Sequence record: PZ445431.1
Strand: one strand, 5' to 3'
Source: a phage
Length of the DNA stretch: 64,000 nucleotides
Below the pieces are notes generated by a model. The model made no database searches, was not told the DNA's origin, and saw only the letters and a program-made list of their open reading frames with translations. Positions 3,050 to 64,000 of this stretch are shown here, one piece after another (within the stretch, counting starts at the first letter, position 1; each line of letters begins with the position of its first letter). A program made the position numbers and the translations under genes.

Positions 3050-3158
3050 TATACCCTCCTTCTCTAACTAAGACTACTATTATAACTCATTCGAAGGCGG
3101 ATGTCAACAATATTTTACTATAAAGTTCTGTAACATGATCTGAGTCAAAAAATTTTAT

Positions 3159-3299: not shown

Positions 3300-3328
3300 T
3301 TGCTTTCTCCCGTATATATTGGTATAAT
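3300..3328 (+). promoter_or_regulatory. T5-type early promoter (TTGCTT-N17-TATAAT) upstream of phoH
   Basis: -35 at 3300-3305, -10 at 3323-3328. Confidence 0.65.
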
Positions 3329-9156: not shown

Positions 9157-10007
9157 AGCAATATATTGAAACTGGAAAACGTATTCTTGAAGAGGGTGTA
9201 TGGGTAACGAATCCTAGAACAGGGGTTCGTTGCCTAACCATTATTGATGCAGACTTTACCTTTAACGTAGGAGCAGGAGAACTGCCGCTAGTAACTACTC
9301 GTAAAGCATTTGCTAAACAAGCAATAATGGAAATGATCGGATATCTCCGTGGGTACGACTCAGCAGCACAATTCCGCGCTATTGGTGTTAATACATGGAA
9401 TGCTAATGCAAATGAAAATATTGCCTGGCTAGGTAATCCATTCCGTAAAGGCGAGGATGATATGGGACGAGTCTATGGTGTTCAAGGACGTCATTGGACT
9501 AATTCTGATGGTATGGTATTTGATCAGTTAGCCAAAGTCTATCATAATTTGAAAAGAGGGATTGACGATCGTGGAGAAATTTTAACTTTTTGGAACCCTG
9601 GGGAATTTCGTAAAGGATGCCTACGTCCGTGTATGCATACCCATCAATTCTCTATTTTAGGTGATACACTATACCTAAACTCTTTCCAGAGGTCTAATGA
9701 TTTCTTGCTGGGCCAAGTATTTAATATGGTGCAATGCTATGCACTTCTAGCTATTATGGCACAGATTACAGGTCTTAAGCCAGGTATTGCTCGTCAAAAG
9801 ATTATTAATCTTCATATCTATGAAGATCAGTATAATGTTCTGATGGAGCACAAGCAATTCGATCGTGAACCTTTTGCACCTCCTACTTTAGAAATCAATC
9901 CAAATATTAGAACTTTGGATGATGTATTAACGTGGGTAAGTAAGGATGATTTTACTGTTCGTGGCTATGAACACCATCCTGCTATTGCATATCCATTTAC
10001 GGTGTAA
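9153..10007 (+). CDS. thyA: thymidylate synthase
   Basis: MKQY start, [14 protein letters not shown] (active-site Cys region), [24 protein letters not shown]; collinear with E. coli ThyA. Confidence 0.9.
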
Positions 10008-10055
10008 CATATATTAATTATACTATTATTTGTCATATTCTTTCTAAAACATTTT

Positions 10056-10364
10056 ATGGCCGATTATCCACTCCAAACACCATATATGCTAAAAAAGACG
10101 CATAAAATAGGGTGGAAACTTCCATTATTAACCCATTCGCTAGTACATGCTGGATTAACATTTGCAATTCTAATCCTATTCACATCACCAGGAATGTCTA
10201 TAGCTTTAGCTATTATGGAATTAATTCTACACTTTATTATAGATTATTGGAAAGCACAACGCTGTAAATACGCTATAAGCGATGCTAAGTTTTGGATAGC
10301 TTTAGGATTTGATCAGTTACTGCATTATCTGACATACGCCCTAATAATCTTGATTATAATCTAA
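10056..10364 (+). CDS. hypothetical membrane protein
   Basis: Highly hydrophobic 102 aa ORF; start may be the internal ATG near 10086. Confidence 0.5.
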   Translation: MADYPLQTPYMLKKTHKIGWKLPLLTHSLVHAGLTFAILILFTSPGMSIALAIMELILHFIIDYWKAQRCKYAISDAKFWIALGFDQLLHYLTYALIILIII

Positions 10365-10368
10365 TTCA

Positions 10369-10394
10369 AATAGCCCTTCGGGGCTATTATATTT
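10369..10394 (+). terminator. rho-independent terminator
   Basis: TAGCCC-TTCG-GGGCTA hairpin followed by T-rich tract. Confidence 0.7.
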
Positions 10395-10403
10395 AAATTT
10401 CAT

Positions 10404-10432
10404 TTGCTTACTGAGTGAAATTCAAATATAAT
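10404..10432 (+). promoter_or_regulatory. T5-type early promoter
   Basis: TTGCTT 10404-10409, TATAAT 10427-10432. Confidence 0.65.
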
Positions 10433-10462
10433 ATACTTCTAATTTGACAGAAGGATTTAATA

Positions 10463-11041
10463 ATGACAGCCATAGTAGCATTTAAATATAAAGATAAAGT
10501 ATACTTAGCCGGTGATCGTATGGGTTCTAATGGCTATACGAAACTGCTGGTTAAAAATCCGAAAGTATTCAAAATCTCTGATGATTTGTGCTTCGGATAC
10601 ACTAGTTCCTTCTACATGGGACAATTACTAGAGCATAGCTTTACTGTACCACCACGTTTAGCAGATATTTCTGATGATAAATATTTATATACGGAAATAG
10701 TACCTAAATTACGTGATATGTTTAACCAGAAAGATTTTGGCGAAAAGAAAAATGAAAAATATGCTGAACCTAATCTGGGACAATTTATTATGCTCTACAA
10801 AGGAAGAATCTTTATTTTCCAATCTAATGCTTCTATTCTAGAAGTTGAATATGCCGGTGTAGGCTGTGGAGGAGAAGATGTACTTTCCAGTATTCGTACA
10901 GGTTTAGCTATTGCGGATTGTCGAGCCACAGATTTAGATGTAGATGATATATTTGAAATCATTGATCTGGCTTTTACGCATTGTGCAGATTATATGTGTG
11001 GTGTATCTTCTCAACATGATATTTTAGTAATTGGAGAATAA
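10463..11041 (+). CDS. putative Ntn-hydrolase, HslV/proteasome-beta-like peptidase
   Basis: N-terminal MTAIVAFKYKDKVYLAGD (Thr2 after Met, as in HslV TTIVSVRR..V.IAGDGQ) and later YAGVGCGGEDV resembling the HslV GSGG motif; similarity judged by eye. Confidence 0.4.
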   Translation: MTAIVAFKYKDKVYLAGDRMGSNGYTKLLVKNPKVFKISDDLCFGYTSSFYMGQLLEHSFTVPPRLADISDDKYLYTEIVPKLRDMFNQKDFGEKKNEKYAEPNLGQFIMLYKGRIFIFQSNASILEVEYAGVGCGGEDVLSSIRTGLAIADCRATDLDVDDIFEIIDLAFTHCADYMCGVSSQHDILVIGE

Positions 11042-11313: not shown

Positions 11314-11789
11314 TGTCGGTTTTCCACATATATACAGATGGTGCATGTAAAGGCAATCCTGGTTTAGGTGCGTGGGGATTCGTTGTCTATAATGATAATG
11401 ATGATCGTATTGGCTCTAAATCTGGCTTCAGCCCTAAAACTACTAATAACGAAATGGAACTTACTGCAATTGTAGAAGTTCTTCGTTGGTCTACTAAGAA
11501 AGATAATCGTCCAGTAATTATCTACACTGATTCTGCTTACTGCAAAAATGGTATGGAAAGCTGGATGTGGTCTTGGCAGAAGAAAGGCTGGAAGAAGGGA
11601 GATGGTGAAACCCCTCTTAATCTAGAACTCTGGCAAGAAGCATTTAAACTAACCCAACAGTACATTAACTTCCATGATACCAATCCAACCTTTGTTAAGG
11701 TTAAAGGTCACTCAGGTATTCGTGGTAATGAAGAAGTTGATGCTCTATGCAATACTGTAATTACTGAGCAAGAACTTGCTGAGATGTAA
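11301..11789 (+). CDS. rnh: ribonuclease H
   Basis: RNase HI motif HIYTDGACKGNPGLGAWG and downstream catalytic acidic residues; true start probably ATG near 11313. Confidence 0.85.
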   Translation: MEQIMSVFHIYTDGACKGNPGLGAWGFVVYNDNDDRIGSKSGFSPKTTNNEMELTAIVEVLRWSTKKDNRPVIIYTDSAYCKNGMESWMWSWQKKGWKKGDGETPLNLELWQEAFKLTQQYINFHDTNPTFVKVKGHSGIRGNEEVDALCNTVITEQELAEM

Positions 11790-27615: not shown

Positions 27616-27688
27616 GGGCGAATAGTGTCAGCGGGAGCACACCAGACTTGCAAGTCTGGTAGGGAGGGTTCGAGTCTCTCTTTGTCCA
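27616..27688 (+). tRNA. tRNA-like gene with non-canonical anticodon loop (6 or 8 nt around TTGCAA)
   Basis: Acceptor GGGCGAA/TTTGTCC (two G-U), D-stem GTGT/ACAC, stem CCAGAC/GTCTGG, T-arm GAGGG-TTCGAGT-CTCTC, encoded CCA. Confidence 0.45.
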
Positions 27689-27706
27689 CCAAATTAAAAA
27701 GAATGC

Positions 27707-47993: not shown

Positions 47994-48715
47994 GTATAAA
48001 AAAGAATTTAGCAGAGATTATTAAGTTAGCTAGAGCTTGTAATGGAAAGAATGTTTCCGAACTTAATGAGTTAGAAGCTCATGCAGTAGCATTTTGTGCA
48101 GAGTTTTATCCAGCATATATTAATGCTAGTGGGCAACCTAAATATAATAAAGATGCAGAAGAAGTCACATTAGCCCCTTCATACATTAGCTTACGTCGTC
48201 TAATTCAAACTATTGATCCGACTATTAAAGGATTCTCAGCGGATTCATTCCATGTGTTTGCAGATGTAGAACTTCCACATTTTAAGGAAGCAAATGCAAA
48301 GTCAGCATTAGAATGTTATCCAAATATTTTAATGGTTCCACAAAAGCAATGTAAATACGATCATCTTCCTAGACTTATTAAAAAGGTAGAACCTCCTTAT
48401 TCTTCCTTATCTGAATTAAAGCTAGGGATTGTATCTACTCTTACGCAAGTTCATCTAAGTTTAGTTGATGACAATGTTACTTCTAATCCTATTCTAGATG
48501 CCGCACATTATGAAATTCTACGTGACCCTGAGCAAGCTAGAAAAGTTGCAAAGTCAGTTAAGTTTGATATCTCAACAATTCTTGACATTGAACAAGAAAC
48601 GAGACCTAGAGGAAGTGTGGATTATTCTGCGCTTAATTCTGAAGCATCTTATTTAGCGACATTCCTTTTTATGGCATCGAAAGGAGTTATTCTAAAGGTT
48701 AACAAAGATGGATGA
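47990..48715 (+). CDS. hypothetical protein (241 aa)
   Basis: Coupled ORF. Confidence 0.55.
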   Translation: MSIKKNLAEIIKLARACNGKNVSELNELEAHAVAFCAEFYPAYINASGQPKYNKDAEEVTLAPSYISLRRLIQTIDPTIKGFSADSFHVFADVELPHFKEANAKSALECYPNILMVPQKQCKYDHLPRLIKKVEPPYSSLSELKLGIVSTLTQVHLSLVDDNVTSNPILDAAHYEILRDPEQARKVAKSVKFDISTILDIEQETRPRGSVDYSALNSEASYLATFLFMASKGVILKVNKDG

Positions 48716-49436
48716 TTTACGTAGTGAAATTAATAAAAACCTAAGAGAGGAAGCCAGGAGGTTTCCTCTCAAAAACTTTTTAAAGTCAAACGGTTCTACT
48801 AATATTACAAAGATTAGGCAGCTTCATCCAGACTTCCAACAAGAGGCATTAAATCTTATCTTTATTAAGAAAGCATTGAAAGTCCAAAAGGAAGAGTATG
48901 GGTATGAAAGAGTTAACTATAAAACAGCTACTCAATTAGTAGAGATTTGGTGTTACAAACATCAAGGCTATTTTATGCAAACAGCTAGATCCCATCTAGA
49001 AGGGCACGGTTGTTTACAATGTGCTAGAGAAAGCAATCTCAATACACCTATCGAGAAACCGGAAATAGATGAGGATGTTCAGTTTCCCACCTATCTCTAT
49101 ATCTTCTCTAATAAGGATCAGTCTAGGAAGAAATTAAAGACGAAGATTGGAGTTTCTAGAGAGCCACATCAAAGGTTTAAGAATCTAGAATATGATAAAC
49201 TGCGTGTGCCGGGTTTCGAAGATATGGAAGTATTTGGTATATATCAGTATAAGAAAGGATCTAAAGAACTTGCTTATAAAATGGAACATCAAGCACATAA
49301 ATTTTTCGAGAGCAGATTTGCTAATCATTATAAATTCGATGGAGCAAAAGAGATATTCAACGTTAAGGCTGTGGAGGCAGAAGAATATTTATTAAGTCAA
49401 GGATGCATAAAAATTTACCCAACTCCAAACTCATGA
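48708..49436 (+). CDS. putative GIY-YIG/T5orf172-like endonuclease with His/Cys zinc-binding module (paralogue of 46168..46686)
   Basis: N-terminal block shared with 46168 (HPDFQQEALNLIFI, QTARSHLEGHGCLQCA) plus C-terminal YLYIFSNKDQSRKKLKTKIGVSREPHQRFKNL GIY-YIG-like segment. Confidence 0.5.
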   Translation: MDDLRSEINKNLREEARRFPLKNFLKSNGSTNITKIRQLHPDFQQEALNLIFIKKALKVQKEEYGYERVNYKTATQLVEIWCYKHQGYFMQTARSHLEGHGCLQCARESNLNTPIEKPEIDEDVQFPTYLYIFSNKDQSRKKLKTKIGVSREPHQRFKNLEYDKLRVPGFEDMEVFGIYQYKKGSKELAYKMEHQAHKFFESRFANHYKFDGAKEIFNVKAVEAEEYLLSQGCIKIYPTPNS

Positions 49437-49463: not shown

Positions 49464-49493
49464 TTGACATTCGTGAGAATAATGTGTTATAAT
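49464..49493 (+). promoter_or_regulatory. near-consensus sigma70 promoter (TTGACA-N17/18-TATAAT) with no ORF downstream
   Basis: TTGACA at 49464-49469, TTATAAT at 49487-49493; differs from the TTGCTT early promoter class. Confidence 0.5.
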
Positions 49494-49779
49494 AATCTCA
49501 TAGATTAAAAACATCAACTTGTTTTTACCTCTAGGCCGTAGATTTACATCATTCCTCGTAGGAAAACACTTGATGACGGTTCTGCTTGCAGGTTCTCGTC
49601 AATTGTTCTTCCTCCCCGAGACTCAGGAGGATGTATCAAATCGCGCGCGCCTAGAGGGGCTAACTCTCATGAAATGGGGGTATATTAACTTTTAAATAAC
49701 TAAAAATATTTAAAGGCAATATTTATGTTCAAGATGATACACCTGTTGCCGCTCATCTGCTAGGATGGCACAACACTTT

Positions 49780-49960
49780 CTTCTAGGCTCCTAAGTTTCT
49801 AGGAATAGTTAAGCACTAACTCTAGAGTTTACACTAAACTTTAAATCTGTTTCTCACACATTCTAGGGCAGTTTCTCTCCAACGTTACATATCCTAGGGC
49901 GGTTTCCTATACAGGGCGGTTATAGGGAGGGCGGTTATTTCTAGGAGACATTTTTTGAAA
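49780..49960. repeat. short direct repeats (TTTCTAGG x4-5, GGGCGGTT x3)
   Basis: CTTCTAGG, TTTCTAGG, CTAGGGCGGTT, CAGGGCGGTT, GGGAGGGCGGTT read directly. Confidence 0.8.
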
Positions 49961-49979: not shown

Positions 49980-50580
49980 TGTCGGATTTGCACATTACAT
50001 TTCTAGAAATTTATGGTCGGATTTGCACATTGATAGGAGTCTCCAAAGTTTTTAGGAACACTGAAAATAGCAGCATTATTTCGGGCCGAAGGCCCATATT
50101 TGCCTGAGTTTTTAGAGCCACAGGAATTTTCACTTGTCAAGCGATTTTGCCCCATTTTGCTAATAAAATTTCGCTTTATCTCCCCTAATCTCAATTCTAG
50201 CCAAAACATCCCGCATTATCCTCAAAAATGCAGCAAACCGGTGCTAAAGCACCATCACCGCTGCTCCTTCCGTAGTTCCTCCCAAAATCTCATCGGATTC
50301 GCACTTCTCCCCAAACTCACACAATCACACACCCTCTCATCGAAGTCACAAAAATCTTGTCGGATTTGCACACCTTAACACTTGTCGGATTTGCACATAC
50401 TCTAGTAAACCCAGCTGGATTGCATCGCAGTTGCGGATTGCTGGAGTTTTTAGGAAAATTCATTGTCGGATTTGCACACTATAAAAATTTTTCGGGTAGG
50501 ATTTGCACATTACCAAAAATTGTCGGATTCGCACATACACGCCAGCACGTAACCCATGGAGCAAATGTCGGATTTGCACA
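49980..50580. repeat. iteron array: about 9 direct copies of TGTCGGATTTGCACA (minor variants)
   Basis: Copies at about 49980, 50016, 50291, 50359, 50383, 50464, 50496, 50521, 50566, all same orientation, irregular spacing. Confidence 0.9.
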
Positions 50581-50599: not shown

Positions 50600-50755
50600 C
50601 CTGCCTGCCGAAATGCGAATGATAATGAGAATGATTCGCATTTGAGAAGTTGAATGCGAATGAGAACAGTTATCATTTGACTACCGGAATACGAATGAGA
50701 ATGATTTGCATTTAGGAAGGGAAACGCTAATAATAATGAGAATGACTCGCATTTA
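50600..50755. repeat. second iteron family AATGAGAATGA(T/C)T(C/T)GCATTT (3 full copies plus partial), each embedding short AATGCGAAT/ATTCGCATT inverted motifs
   Basis: Copies at about 50621, 50693, 50733 plus GCGAATGAGAACAG at 50664. Confidence 0.85.
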
Positions 50756-50786
50756 CAAAGCGAAGTGAGAAACACTGTTATTTAAG

Positions 50787-50856: not shown

Positions 50857-50894
50857 GACTTATCAACAGGTTATTCTACTGTATATTTATACAG
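50848..50894. repeat. left arm of about 47 bp inverted repeat (partner 54593-54639)
   Basis: TTATCCACAGACTTATCAACAGGTTATTCTACTGTATATTTATACAG versus reverse complement of 54593-54639, about 90% identical. Confidence 0.8.
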
Positions 50895-50926
50895 TATTCC
50901 TGCGTAGTGAATAACTCTAATATAGC

Positions 50927-54343: not shown

Positions 54344-54592
54344 TTCTTTGTCTCCCTCGTTAATCGGTGAGTGAATGATATAGATAATTGTTCGCTATGG
54401 GCAAGAAAAAAGAAAAGGTTTTTTATTCCTTGCCTAACGCTTGTTTTTATGATACCCGCGTGTTTTCTATTTCTAGCTCTCTGTAAGCGTACACAAGGCT
54501 TTATTATAATAAGGGTAGCAGTGAGAAAACGCCGTGTAGCGTGTTCTAGACCTCTTAAATTTGATTGCGGTTGTTACTGCTACCATTCTACC

Positions 54593-54639
54593 CTGTATAT
54601 TTATACAGTAGGATAACCTGTATATAAGTCTGTGGATAA
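54593..54639. repeat. right arm of about 47 bp inverted repeat (partner 50848-50894), containing a DnaA box
   Basis: CTGTATATTTATACAGTAGGATAACCTGTATATAAGTCTGTGGATAA. Confidence 0.8.
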
Positions 54640-63518: not shown

Positions 63519-64000
63519 ATGGCAAATGATGTATTAGTTCCCGATCTCATGTCTCCCGAAGGCATGGATGTTATTGAAGCCTATTTACAGTGCGGTAGTG
63601 ATGTTCCTGCCGCCGCTCGTAGTCTTGGAATGTCCGAGATTGCATTCCGTGATATAATGAATCGTGGGGAAGTTAAAAACTATCTCAACGATATCTTTAT
63701 GGAAAGTGGCTTCCGTAATCGTGACCGCTTATTCGGAGTTCTTGACGAAGTTATCAAGCGTAAGCTGGAAGAACTTGAAGAAACTGGCATGGGTTCTGAC
63801 CAGGATATCATGGATATTCTCTGGAAGGCGCACAAGATGAAGATGGAAGAAATGAAAATGATGGTAGAACTGGAGAAAGTGAAGGCAGCAGCCCGTACTC
63901 CGGCTAACCAGACTAATATTCAGAATAATATTATTGCTGGAAGTGGTGACGAAAACTATATGAATCTTATTACCGCTCTAGCAGGAGGAGGTAAGAGATA
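63519..64000 (+). CDS. putative terminase small subunit-like protein, partial (3' end beyond window)
   Basis: AGGAGGA RBS; N-terminal helix-turn-helix-like segment ([21 protein letters not shown]) and charged coiled-coil region. Confidence 0.4.

What the first reader, a model, noticed from the sequence alone, without database searches (positions are those of the whole stretch)
49464..49760. Near-consensus sigma70 promoter firing into the ORF-free iteron leader
TTGACA-N17/18-TATAAT at 49464-49493 is the best match to the host consensus in the window and differs from the TTGCTT early promoter class. No ORF follows; downstream sequence has GC-rich hairpins (for example GCGCGCGCCTAGAGGGGC). It may produce a non-coding transcript across the iteron region or act as a polymerase-loading site.
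Basis: seen in the sequence. Interest (0 to 1): 0.45.

Follow-up and report, generated by a model that had tools for sequence, protein, structure and literature searches.

The report
Conserved promoter driving unannotated phage RNA
The promoter is real and conserved across T5-like phages, and it appears to drive a previously unannotated, highly folded small RNA gene next to the terminal repeat whose function is unknown.

Summary
The window is T5-like Escherichia phage TrudiRoth (100% match). The reported site is there: TTGACA-N18-TATAAT at 49464-49493, 12/12, with an extended -10 TG. Only two 12/12 sites occur in the 64 kb (0.1 expected by chance), and the other one precedes an ordinary gene.

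In about 60 related loci (T5/Tequintavirus, Epseptimavirus, Klebsiella Sugarlandvirus, Serratia phage Kamaji) the hexamers and the TG stay fixed while the spacer and the upstream gene change. That is the signature of a selected promoter.

It lies in unique DNA about 650 bp outside the terminal repeat and points into it. No ORF is conserved downstream.

What follows is one transcription unit of about 180-200 nt: a small hairpin P1, a 130-nt rod P2 and a hairpin P3 holding a G-run. At least 12 rod sequence classes are unrelated in sequence, yet all fold the same way (z -2.3 to -7.4).

The evidence points to RNA on the promoter strand. Variation sits in loops (p=2e-5). Stem changes are WC<->G·U 13 times against A·C once. 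Two U·G pairs in P3 are conserved, one in all 17 sequences.

Rfam, three T5 GenBank records and the searchable literature describe nothing here. Function and 3' end are unproven. A canonical terminator exists in only one class, so read-through into the iterons remains possible.

The parts
49464..49469 (+). -35 hexamer TTGACA
   Evidence: Fixed as TTGAC[AG] in 27 of the first 29 loci examined. Variants elsewhere: TTGCAT in the B3 class, TTGAAA in L057, TTTACA in Kamaji.
49470..49487 (+). 18-nt spacer, free to vary except its last bases; extended -10 TG at 49485-49486
   Evidence: Spacer sequences are unrelated between classes, while ATGTTAT[AC]AT is kept.
49488..49493 (+). -10 hexamer TATAAT
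   Evidence: TATAAT or TATCAT in the T5-like loci. Sugarlandvirus loci have TATAAT (L043, L057) or TAGAAT (L058). Kamaji has TACAAT.
49494..49506 (.). 13-bp palindrome AATCT-CAT-AGATT over the predicted start site; possible operator, or a constrained initial transcribed sequence
   Evidence: The only exact copy in the window. Identical in classes A, B, C and in Sugarland. The T5 class has AACTC-TAT-GAGTT, a symmetric change of both arms. The predicted start site is about A49500, so only half of it would be in the RNA (inference).
49500..49700 (+). Predicted non-coding RNA, about 180-200 nt; the 3' end has not been mapped
   Evidence: MFE -66.8 kcal/mol, z -4.85 on + against z -1.58 on -. Covariance model R1 finds it once in the window and in six other sequence classes. 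No Rfam hit.
49506..49527 (+). P1 hairpin (AAAAACAU / UUGUUUUU in the MFE; 7 core pairs AAAAACA / UGUUUUU counted across classes; 6-nt loop)
   Evidence: Four of 7 pairs change on both sides across classes and 90.8% of cells are paired. Kamaji and Sugarland have a P1 of different sequence.
49528..49657 (+). P2, a 130-nt imperfect rod. The base is conserved (CCUCUAGGC/GCCUAGAGG); the apical part is hypervariable
   Evidence: At least 12 unrelated sequence classes all form a rod. Within class A the variation sits in the apical loop and in internal loops.
49663..49681 (+). P3 hairpin ACUCUCAU-GAA-AUGGGGGU with a conserved G-run
   Evidence: 88.7% of cells are paired; one U·G pair is present in 17/17 sequences and another in 12/17. 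These pairs cannot form on the complementary strand. In class B3 this hairpin is a 14-bp stem followed by a T-run, a canonical terminator.
49682..49727 (+). A/U-rich tract after P3. It exists in 2-3 sequence variants that recombine independently of the rod class
   Evidence: GC is 0.32 here. The scan finds no U-tract terminator here in the window.
49728..49780 (.). Ultra-conserved 53-nt block TTCAAGATGATACACCTGTTGCCGCTCATCTGCTAGGATGGCACAACACTTTC, always 238-274 nt downstream of the -35. Probably a DNA-level protein site
   Evidence: 100% identical in many otherwise divergent loci. Its few substitutions are not compensatory, e.g. TCATC->TCTTC without a matching change in GATGA. Not recognisable by eye in the Sugarland and Kamaji sequences.
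48708..49436 (+). Upstream gene: a T5orf172/MUG113 homing-endonuclease-like insertion. It is context, not part of the unit
   Evidence: Pfam PF10544 and PF13455; PHROG endonuclease families. Other phages have phrog_8993, T5.018 (phrog_8583) or a 118-aa endonuclease here, and the promoter always starts within about 30 nt of the stop codon.
50114..50115 (.). Inferred inner boundary of the terminal repeat (context)
   Evidence: Placed by homology to the annotated boundaries of T5 NC_005859 (10219) and Spc35, which both lie 335-337 nt after the 53-nt block. In records that hold both terminal repeats, the promoter/RNA query matches once and the iss query matches twice.

Best explanation
This is a functional host-type (sigma70, extended -10) promoter. 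Its product is a small non-coding RNA gene conserved across several Demerecviridae lineages but not annotated. The RNA would start near A49500. It folds into a short hairpin (P1), a roughly 130-nt imperfect rod (P2) and a G-run hairpin (P3). It would end at or just after P3, near 49681-49700, either by weak or partial intrinsic termination or by trimming of an unstructured A/U-rich 3' extension back to the hairpins.

The unit sits in unique DNA right after the last leftward early gene, about 650 bp outside the terminal repeat, and points toward it. It is therefore the first near-consensus promoter I can identify on the second-step-transfer DNA that enters the cell. It should need nothing but host RNA polymerase.

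The base of the fold (leader, P1, bottom of P2, P3) is conserved. The apex of the rod is replaced wholesale between close relatives while base pairing is kept. From this I infer that the RNA works as a folded molecule, recognised at its basal module by a protein. I do not think it acts as an mRNA leader or as an antisense regulator.

Shown here: the promoter signals and their conservation, the absence of coding potential, the conserved architecture, and RNA-strand-specific substitution patterns.

Inferred: the transcription start site, the 3' end, stability, and the protein-binding mode of action acting in trans.
For: Promoter: 12/12 plus TG. There are two such hexamer matches in 64 kb against 0.1 expected. 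The hexamers and TG are fixed while the spacers are unrelated across about 40 distinct sequences. The same promoter occurs in Sugarlandvirus (12/12 plus TG) and in Serratia phage Kamaji, whatever gene lies upstream.

RNA fold: window z -4.85. Ten representatives give z -3.7 to -7.4, three Klebsiella classes give -6.3, -4.9 and -2.3, and Kamaji gives -4.4. The P1/rod/P3 layout is the same in all.

Strand: the + strand is more stable than the - strand in 32 of 32 variants. Summed alifold energies are -357.9 on + against -293.4 on -.

Within-class variation: 35 of 62 variable columns fall in the 31% of columns that are unpaired (p=2.4e-5). Stem changes on + are 13 WC<->G·U, 1 to A·C and 3 compensatory. 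The mirrored analysis on - gives 4 G·U and 5 A·C.

Basal helices: 6 pairs change on both sides against 2.1 in shuffles (0 of 500 shuffles reach it), and this exceeds all slid controls. One U·G pair in P3 is present in 17/17 sequences.

End of unit: a canonical terminator sits at P3 in class B3.

Other points: no conserved ORF. One copy per genome, outside the repeat. No Rfam family matches.
Against: No transcript has been seen. I could not reach the existing RNA-seq data (PRJEB101990; PMC13250531).

In the window and in most classes P3 is not followed by a U-tract, and the scan reports no terminator there. A discrete 3' end is therefore an assumption, and read-through toward the iterons is possible.

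A long imperfect inverted repeat also folds on the minus strand. Some classes give z as low as -6.7 to -8.7 on that strand. Class E shows no plus-strand G·U bias.

The covariance model built from class A does not detect classes D, E or Sugarland. Their membership rests on position, promoter and architecture only.

The counts come from about 40 related sequences falling into about 12 classes, so they are not independent events. No binding partner or phenotype is known.
Confidence: 0.6

Rival explanations
1. The RNA or the act of transcription works in cis. The promoter exists to send RNA polymerase, or an RNA 3' end or R-loop, into the A/T-rich tract, the 53-nt block and the DRD iterons and DnaA boxes that straddle the terminal-repeat boundary. 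The purpose would be to activate or prime DNA replication (as ColE1 RNA II, T4 oriF/oriG and T7 phi1.1A/B do), or to help genome-end recognition and processing (compare T7 phiOR and its concatemer junction). In this view the structured 5' part merely stabilises or anchors the transcript.
For: The order promoter, structured RNA with a G-run, about 45 nt of A/T-rich DNA (GC 0.32), an ultra-conserved block at fixed distance (238-274 nt), then 8 same-strand 15-mer iterons and DnaA boxes (Davison, bioRxiv 10.1101/866236) resembles a transcription-activated origin. Most classes lack a terminator after P3. T5 origins are not defined at sequence level, and T5 encodes a UL9-like origin-binding helicase (PMC3632103). 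The variable RNA with a conserved downstream block mirrors the ColE1-type RNA II and origin arrangement (my own knowledge).
Against: The distance from the promoter to the repeat boundary is not conserved: about 650 bp in T5-like phages against about 1,136 bp in Sugarland. The 53-nt block is not recognisable in the Sugarland and Kamaji sequences, although the promoter and RNA are kept. The G-run is paired within P3 rather than free. A C-rich, G-poor tract that could load Rho (GC skew down to -0.65 at 50150-50400) should stop untranslated read-through. One class has a strong terminator at P3. EM studies placed T5 origins internally (cited). RNA-level selection on the fold is not needed for simple transcriptional activation.
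Confidence: 0.2
2. It is a 3'-end module for the upstream early operon. The rod and P3 would act as a terminator, an exonuclease block or an RNase III processing site. This would end and stabilise the leftward early transcripts and insulate the terminal repeat from read-through. The promoter would be secondary.
For: In the window there is no terminator between the stop codon of the last early gene (49436) and the rod, so operon transcripts must enter it. Long imperfect hairpins are classical RNase III and stabiliser elements (my own knowledge, e.g. T7 early mRNA). The plus-strand RNA selection fits this reading equally well.
Against: It does not explain why a consensus promoter with fixed hexamers is kept immediately upstream in every lineage. 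Sugarland has its own canonical terminator between the last gene and the promoter, so the rod is not needed as the operon terminator there. The conserved P1/P2/P3 architecture is more elaborate than a stabiliser hairpin needs.
Confidence: 0.1
3. It is only a DNA-level element. The 130-bp imperfect palindrome would act as DNA: a cruciform, or a snap-back hairpin used to duplicate the terminal repeat (as proposed for T7 concatemer processing), or a protein-binding site. The promoter would be incidental or merely help extrusion.
For: The inverted repeat folds significantly on both strands in several classes. It lies a few hundred bp outside the repeat boundary, which is where a T7-like hairpin-primed duplication would need it (my own knowledge of the Chung/Hinkle T7 model).
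Against: The + strand is more stable in 32 of 32 variants. Stem substitutions are G·U-compatible on + (13) and almost never A·C (1), and the mirror analysis loses this. P3 depends on conserved U·G pairs, one of them present in all 17 sequences, that are A·C mismatches in DNA and on the other strand. The promoter is conserved at the right distance and in the right orientation.
Confidence: 0.06
4. It is a chance promoter-like sequence with no function.
For: A/T-rich phage DNA yields many weak promoter-like matches: 51 against 37.6 expected in 12 kb.
Against: A 12/12 match plus TG is expected 0.1 times per window. Hexamer-specific conservation across three or more genus-level groups with diverged spacers cannot be chance.
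Confidence: 0.02

Closest known systems
Bacillus phage phi29 pRNA (Rfam RF00044)
   Same: A viral non-coding RNA of about 120-174 nt encoded next to a genome end and transcribed from a strong host-type early promoter toward that end. Its sequence is nearly unrecognisable between relatives while its secondary structure is kept (my own knowledge). The unit here shows the same pattern: at least 12 sequence classes and one architecture.
   Different: No Rfam match. The fold here is a hairpin, a rod and a hairpin, not the pRNA three-way junction with inter-molecular loop pairing. T5-like phages use a conventional terminase, and no RNA requirement for packaging is known. A role in packaging is untested.
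Lambda PR' 6S RNA and oop RNA (short constitutive phage transcripts)
   Same: A short, untranslated transcript made by unmodified host sigma70 polymerase from a strong phage promoter.
   Different: Lambda 6S is the terminated leader of the late operon and is extended by Q antitermination. Here no co-oriented genes lie downstream: the next genes are convergent. oop is an antisense RNA with a defined target, whereas no complementarity above chance was found here.
Transcription-primed or transcription-activated origins (ColE1 RNA II, T4 oriF/oriG, T7 phi1.1A/B, lambda ori)
   Same: A promoter followed by structured RNA, an A/T-rich tract, then a conserved block and iterons with DnaA boxes. The RNA is variable and the downstream DNA is conserved.
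   Different: No evidence of a persistent hybrid. The RNA would be C-rich, not G-rich, further downstream. The G-run is paired in P3. The block is absent in Sugarland and Kamaji. Origin activity is unknown.
Bacterial 6S RNA (RF00013)
   Same: A rod-like RNA of about 180 nt made from a sigma70 promoter.
   Different: The predicted rod has no large central bubble that would mimic an open promoter. No Rfam hit at E<=1.
T5 'injection stop signal' / Repeat Region 3 (Heusterspreute 1987; Wang 2005; Davison 2020 bioRxiv 10.1101/866236)
   Same: The same 1.6-kb non-coding region (T5 9194-10856), known to be conserved in T5-like phages and rich in repeats, palindromes and DnaA boxes.
   Different: The described repeats end at T5 10409 (AY587007). 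The promoter and RNA occupy the undescribed remainder, about 10410-10855. They lie outside the terminal repeat and carry no feature in three T5 GenBank records. The preprint's text never uses the words promoter or transcript.

Membership tests
sigma70 promoter with extended -10 | -35 hexamer close to TTGACA | tested here: met
   TTGACA, 6/6.
sigma70 promoter with extended -10 | -10 hexamer close to TATAAT, at 17+/-1 nt from the -35 | tested here: met
   TATAAT, 6/6, with an 18-nt spacer. Relatives have 17 or 18.
sigma70 promoter with extended -10 | TGn immediately upstream of the -10 | tested here: met
   TGT-TATAAT. The TG is kept in all relatives examined.
sigma70 promoter with extended -10 | Signals conserved while surrounding sequence drifts | tested here: met
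   Spacers are unrelated between classes while the hexamers are fixed. The site is present in Sugarlandvirus and in Kamaji.
sigma70 promoter with extended -10 | Mapped transcription start, or in vitro transcription by Esigma70 | not testable with these tools
   No read-level RNA data are accessible. PRJEB101990 exists for Bas33.
Intrinsic (Rho-independent) terminator at P3 | Stable G+C-containing stem-loop | tested here: met
   P3 has 8 bp including 3 G·U. It is conserved, with 88.7% of cells paired.
Intrinsic (Rho-independent) terminator at P3 | U-tract directly after the stem | tested here: not met
   The scan reports no terminator at 49663-49700; the tail is UAUAUUAAC. The feature is met only in class B3: a 14-bp stem followed by TTTTTCTTT.
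Any curated RNA family (Rfam 15, including 6S RF00013 and phi29 pRNA RF00044) | Covariance-model match | tested here: not met
   No hit at E<=1 over the element in the window or in 7 loci of other classes.
6S-like RNA polymerase-sequestering RNA | Large central bubble flanked by long helices | tested here: not met
   Predicted rods have only small internal loops. This is a prediction only.
Base-pairing (antisense) sRNA | Extended complementarity to a target transcript | tested here: not met
   The longest match to the rest of the 64-kb window is 11 nt, against 11-14 nt for shuffled controls. No match in E. coli genomes or plasmids. The other half of the phage genome was not tested.
Transcription-primed origin (ColE1 / T4 ori / T7 ori type) | Promoter directed into an A/T-rich unwinding element next to initiator sites | tested here: inconclusive
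   The layout is compatible. However, the block and the distances are not conserved in Sugarland and Kamaji.
Transcription-primed origin (ColE1 / T4 ori / T7 ori type) | Persistent RNA-DNA hybrid, or DNA synthesis starting there | not testable with these tools
   Needs DRIP or replication-initiation-point mapping.
Protein-coding leader / small ORF | Conserved reading frame with a start signal | tested here: not met
   The longest ATG ORFs are 11-40 aa, in different frames and positions per class, and all frames contain stops.

The most novel reading that the evidence does not exclude
The RNA is a dedicated component of genome-end or replication biology in Demerecviridae. Either it is a phi29-pRNA-like or ColE1-RNA-II-like molecule made from the first promoter to enter with the second-step DNA, or the whole 'iss' non-coding region is really an RNA-activated origin or packaging site. 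In that reading the RNA would act together with the 53-nt block and the same-strand DRD iterons at the terminal-repeat boundary. The wholesale replacement of the rod apex between relatives would then reflect specificity or incompatibility determinants between co-infecting phages.
Probability: 0.15. Interest if true: 0.8.

Novelty: new member of a known kind. Interest (0 to 1): 0.5.

Why it matters
T5 is a classical model phage, and the 1.6-kb non-coding region at the border between first-step and second-step DNA has puzzled people since the 1980s. All published discussion I could read treats it as DNA repeats, DnaA boxes and palindromes.

A consensus host promoter that drives a structure-conserved but sequence-hypervariable RNA adds a new and testable player. 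The unit is kept in T5-like, Sugarland-like and Kamaji-like phages, and it is the first near-consensus promoter I can identify on the DNA that enters in the second step.

It gives a concrete target for knock-out and trans-complementation experiments in a phage family widely used for therapy and defence-system studies. It is also a candidate new RNA family for Rfam.

If it proves to be an ordinary stable sRNA, the gain is an annotation fix in several hundred genomes. If it acts at the repeat boundary, it bears directly on how T5 replicates or forms its ends.

Tried and rejected
1. Rfam at permissive E-values, on the window and on seven loci of other classes: nothing over the element. tRNA/tmRNA scan: nothing there.

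2. Similarity of the RNA to E. coli genomes and plasmids, testing a host-derived, decoy or spacer-like origin: no match even at E=1.

3. Antisense targets in the rest of the window: no better than shuffled controls.

4. Small-protein reading: rejected, no conserved ORF.

5. The 53-nt block as part of the RNA fold: rejected, because its substitutions break candidate pairs without compensation.

6. A second operator copy of the 13-bp palindrome in the window: none.

7. Covariance model from class A: it finds classes A2, A3, B, B2, B3 and C but not D, E or Sugarland, and no second copy in the window. So a single model cannot yet unite the family.

8. A sequence-based alignment of the P2 base across classes is out of register for class B, which lowers the formal pair count for that helix.

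9. The IMG/VR and metagenome scans returned the same classes already seen in GenBank and one chance hit, L032.

10. Literature: nine counted full-text searches and five papers read. These included Davison's preprint, the BF23 genome paper, Klimuk 2020 and the Bas33 RNA-seq paper. None mentions a promoter or RNA here. Gentz & Bujard 1985 is not held and Davison 2015 did not turn up in a title search. An older description therefore cannot be excluded.

11. Upstream proteins as partners: the neighbouring gene is a variable homing-endonuclease-type insertion, not a conserved partner.

Full report
**Identity and context**

The window matches Escherichia phage TrudiRoth (Bas30, MZ501109; Demerecviridae, Epseptimavirus) at 100%. 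The window + strand corresponds to the minus strand of phage T5.

The finding lies at the start of the family's large non-coding region. Window 49437 to about 51041 is equivalent to T5 9194-10856. The literature describes this region as the injection-stop-signal / 'Repeat Region 3' area, rich in repeats, palindromes and DnaA boxes (Davison, bioRxiv 10.1101/866236; BF23 paper PMC10644984).

In T5 the annotated repeats stop at 10409 (AY587007). The stretch up to ORF018/T5.018 carries no feature in three GenBank records. That unannotated stretch is where the promoter and the sequence just downstream sit.

Using the annotated repeat boundaries of T5 and Spc35, the terminal repeat would begin near window 50115. 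The promoter is therefore in unique DNA about 650 bp outside the repeat and fires toward it. Consistent with this, records that contain both repeats match the promoter/RNA query once but match the iss query twice.

**Observation**

TTGACA, 18 nt and TATAAT, with TG at -15/-14, are at 49464-49493. In the whole window only two 12/12 sites exist, against 0.1 expected. The other, at 3107 on the minus strand, lacks the TG and is followed by an RBS and an ATG.

No ORF of consequence follows.

**Conservation of the promoter**

I collected about 60 related loci from GenBank phages, IMG/VR and metagenomes. In 27 of the first 29 loci, a TTGAC[AG]-N17/18-TGTTAT[AC]AT site lies 238-274 nt upstream of an ultra-conserved 53-nt block. 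The other two loci have TTGCAT-N17-TGTTATAAT.

The spacer sequences are unrelated between groups while the hexamers and the TG are fixed. The gene upstream also differs:
- a T5orf172/MUG113 homing-endonuclease-like gene in the window;
- a 118-aa endonuclease gene, phrog_8993, or T5.018 in other phages.

In every case the promoter begins within about 30 nt of that gene's stop codon.

The same unit occurs in Klebsiella phage Sugarland (12/12 plus TG), in two further Sugarland-type classes and in Serratia phage Kamaji (TTTACA-N17-TGTTACAAT). This is strong comparative evidence for a used promoter.

**What is transcribed**

From about A49500 the + strand folds into P1 (49506-49527), a 130-nt rod P2 (49528-49657) and P3 (49663-49681). 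The MFE is -66.8 kcal/mol with z -4.85. The complementary strand gives z -1.58.

Across relatives the sequence between the promoter and the A/T-rich tract falls into at least 12 classes with no recognisable similarity in the rod. All of them have the same P1/rod/P3 layout and are unusually stable: z -3.7 to -7.4, -6.3, -4.9 and -2.3, and -4.4.

Classes that share the base of the rod differ completely in its apex (A/A2/A3 and B/B2/B3). Variability therefore increases toward the tip.

**RNA or DNA?**

Several results point to RNA on the promoter strand.
- The + strand is more stable than the - strand in all 32 distinct variants.
- Within six classes with at least 3 variants, 35 of 62 variable columns lie in the 31% of columns that are unpaired (p=2.4e-5).
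- Variable base pairs on + are WC<->G·U 13 times, to A·C once, fully compensatory 3 times and disruptive 3 times.
- The mirror analysis on the - strand gives 4 G·U and 5 A·C, and a summed alifold energy of -293 against -358 on +.
- For the basal helices, the formal count gives 6 pairs with changes on both sides against 2.1 in shuffles (0 of 500 shuffles reach it). This beats all slid controls.
- P1 has 4 of 7 covarying pairs.
- P3 contains a U·G pair present in 17 of 17 sequences, which is a mismatch on the other strand and in DNA.

Class E is the exception, with no + strand bias.

**What it is not**

- No Rfam family matches at E<=1, in the window or in seven loci of other classes.
- No ORF is conserved.
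- It has no similarity to E. coli genomes or plasmids.
- It has no complementarity above chance to the other 64 kb of the window.
- There is no second copy in the window.

**The 3' end and downstream**

In the window and in most classes, P3 is followed by an A/U-rich tract but not by a U-run, and the scan calls no terminator. In class B3 the same hairpin is a 14-bp stem followed by a T-run.

Downstream, in order, come:
- the A/T-rich tract, which exists in 2-3 variants that recombine independently of the rod class;
- the 53-nt block, which behaves as a DNA site because its substitutions are not compensatory;
- CTAG-rich and GGGCGGTT repeats;
- eight DRD 15-mers, all on the + strand;
- a C-rich, G-poor tract starting at the inferred repeat boundary (GC skew to -0.65), which would favour Rho termination of untranslated read-through (inference);
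- DnaA boxes and a near-consensus LexA box.

A discrete RNA of about 180-200 nt is therefore my preferred reading. A longer primary transcript trimmed back to the hairpins, or functional read-through, cannot be excluded.

**Mechanism**

I commit to a stable, folded, trans-acting RNA recognised at its conserved basal module. It would be made by unmodified host polymerase as soon as second-step DNA enters the cell.

The main rival is a cis role at the repeat boundary, in origin activation or priming or in end processing. Arguments for it are the origin-like layout and the lack of terminators. Arguments against it are the variable distance to the boundary, the absence of the block in Sugarland and Kamaji, and the terminator in class B3.

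A 3'-stabiliser/insulator role and a DNA-only palindrome are less likely, for the reasons given under rival explanations.

**Literature**

Within the searchable library I found no mention of a promoter or RNA at this position. Key older papers were not readable, so prior description cannot be ruled out.

RNA-seq for a class-A phage (Bas33) exists, but it was analysed per gene (PMC13250531).

**Verdict**

The substantive result is a candidate new structured RNA family with its own consensus promoter, conserved in several Demerecviridae lineages. Its function is unknown.

Noticed in passing
window 50877-50896 and 54591-54610: A near-consensus LexA (SOS) box, TACTGTATATTTATACAGTA, with a second copy CCCTGTATATTTATACAGTA. 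Both sit next to the DnaA boxes. The motif is conserved as TACTGTATA[AT][AT]TATACAGTA in 40 of 60 held sequences, including T5 (the annotated 'palindrome D') and Klebsiella phage Sugarland. Davison's preprint on this region mentions neither LexA nor SOS.
   Followed up: partly
window 49728-49780: A 53-nt block that is 100% identical in many otherwise divergent T5-like phages and always lies 238-274 nt from the promoter. Its substitutions are not compensatory. It is not recognisable in Sugarland and Kamaji. It looks like a protein-binding DNA site of unknown function.
   Followed up: partly
window 49980-50580; also 42104, 47186, 47417: The 15-mer TGTCGGATTTGCACA (T5 'direct repeat D') occurs 8 times in the non-coding region. 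Four looser copies (1-2 mismatches) lie elsewhere in the window: 42104, 47186 and 47417 in upstream early-gene DNA, and a 2-mismatch one at 11314. All 12 are on the + strand, against 0.1 expected. From memory, the core ATTCGCAC/ATTTGCAC resembles the HSV UL9 origin box GTTCGCAC, and T5 D2 is UL9-like. This was not tested.
   Followed up: no
window 50150-50400: A strongly C-rich, G-poor tract on the + strand (GC skew -0.43 to -0.65) that begins at the inferred terminal-repeat boundary. It could act as a Rho-loading site for + strand transcripts and is G-rich on the other strand.
   Followed up: no
window 49494-49506: A 13-bp palindrome AATCT-CAT-AGATT lies directly over the predicted start site. 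In the T5 class it is AACTC-TAT-GAGTT, so both arms changed symmetrically. It is the only exact copy in the window. It may be an operator.
   Followed up: partly
window 48708-49436 (compare L017 1140-1496, L057 1-380): Different homing-endonuclease-type genes (T5orf172/MUG113, GIY-YIG-like) are inserted immediately upstream of the promoter in different phages. Homology between genomes breaks at or within the -35/spacer region.
   Followed up: partly
window 3079-3107 (- strand): The only other 12/12 sigma70 match in the window (TTGACA-N17-TATAAT, no TG). It is followed by AAGGAGG and an ATG, so it is an ordinary mRNA promoter. It is divergent from a TTGCTT-type promoter at 3300.
   Followed up: partly
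window 27616-27691: ARAGORN reports a tRNA-like gene with a 4-base anticodon (tgca) among the 21 tRNA genes.
   Followed up: no
window 50600-50760: Four copies of a GCGAATGAGAATGATTCGCATT-type unit, each partly palindromic, lie between the DRD iterons and the DnaA boxes. They correspond to T5 direct repeat C and palindromes E-I. A weak PrrF 'hit' there (E=0.37) is well below the Rfam threshold.
   Followed up: no
window about 63519-64000: Extrapolating the coordinate offset seen, the window would run about 480 nt past the end of the TrudiRoth record. Its last 700 nt match DNA annotated as receptor-binding tail protein and terminase small subunit in relatives. The source assembly may therefore carry one collapsed terminal repeat joined to the other genome end.
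   Followed up: partly
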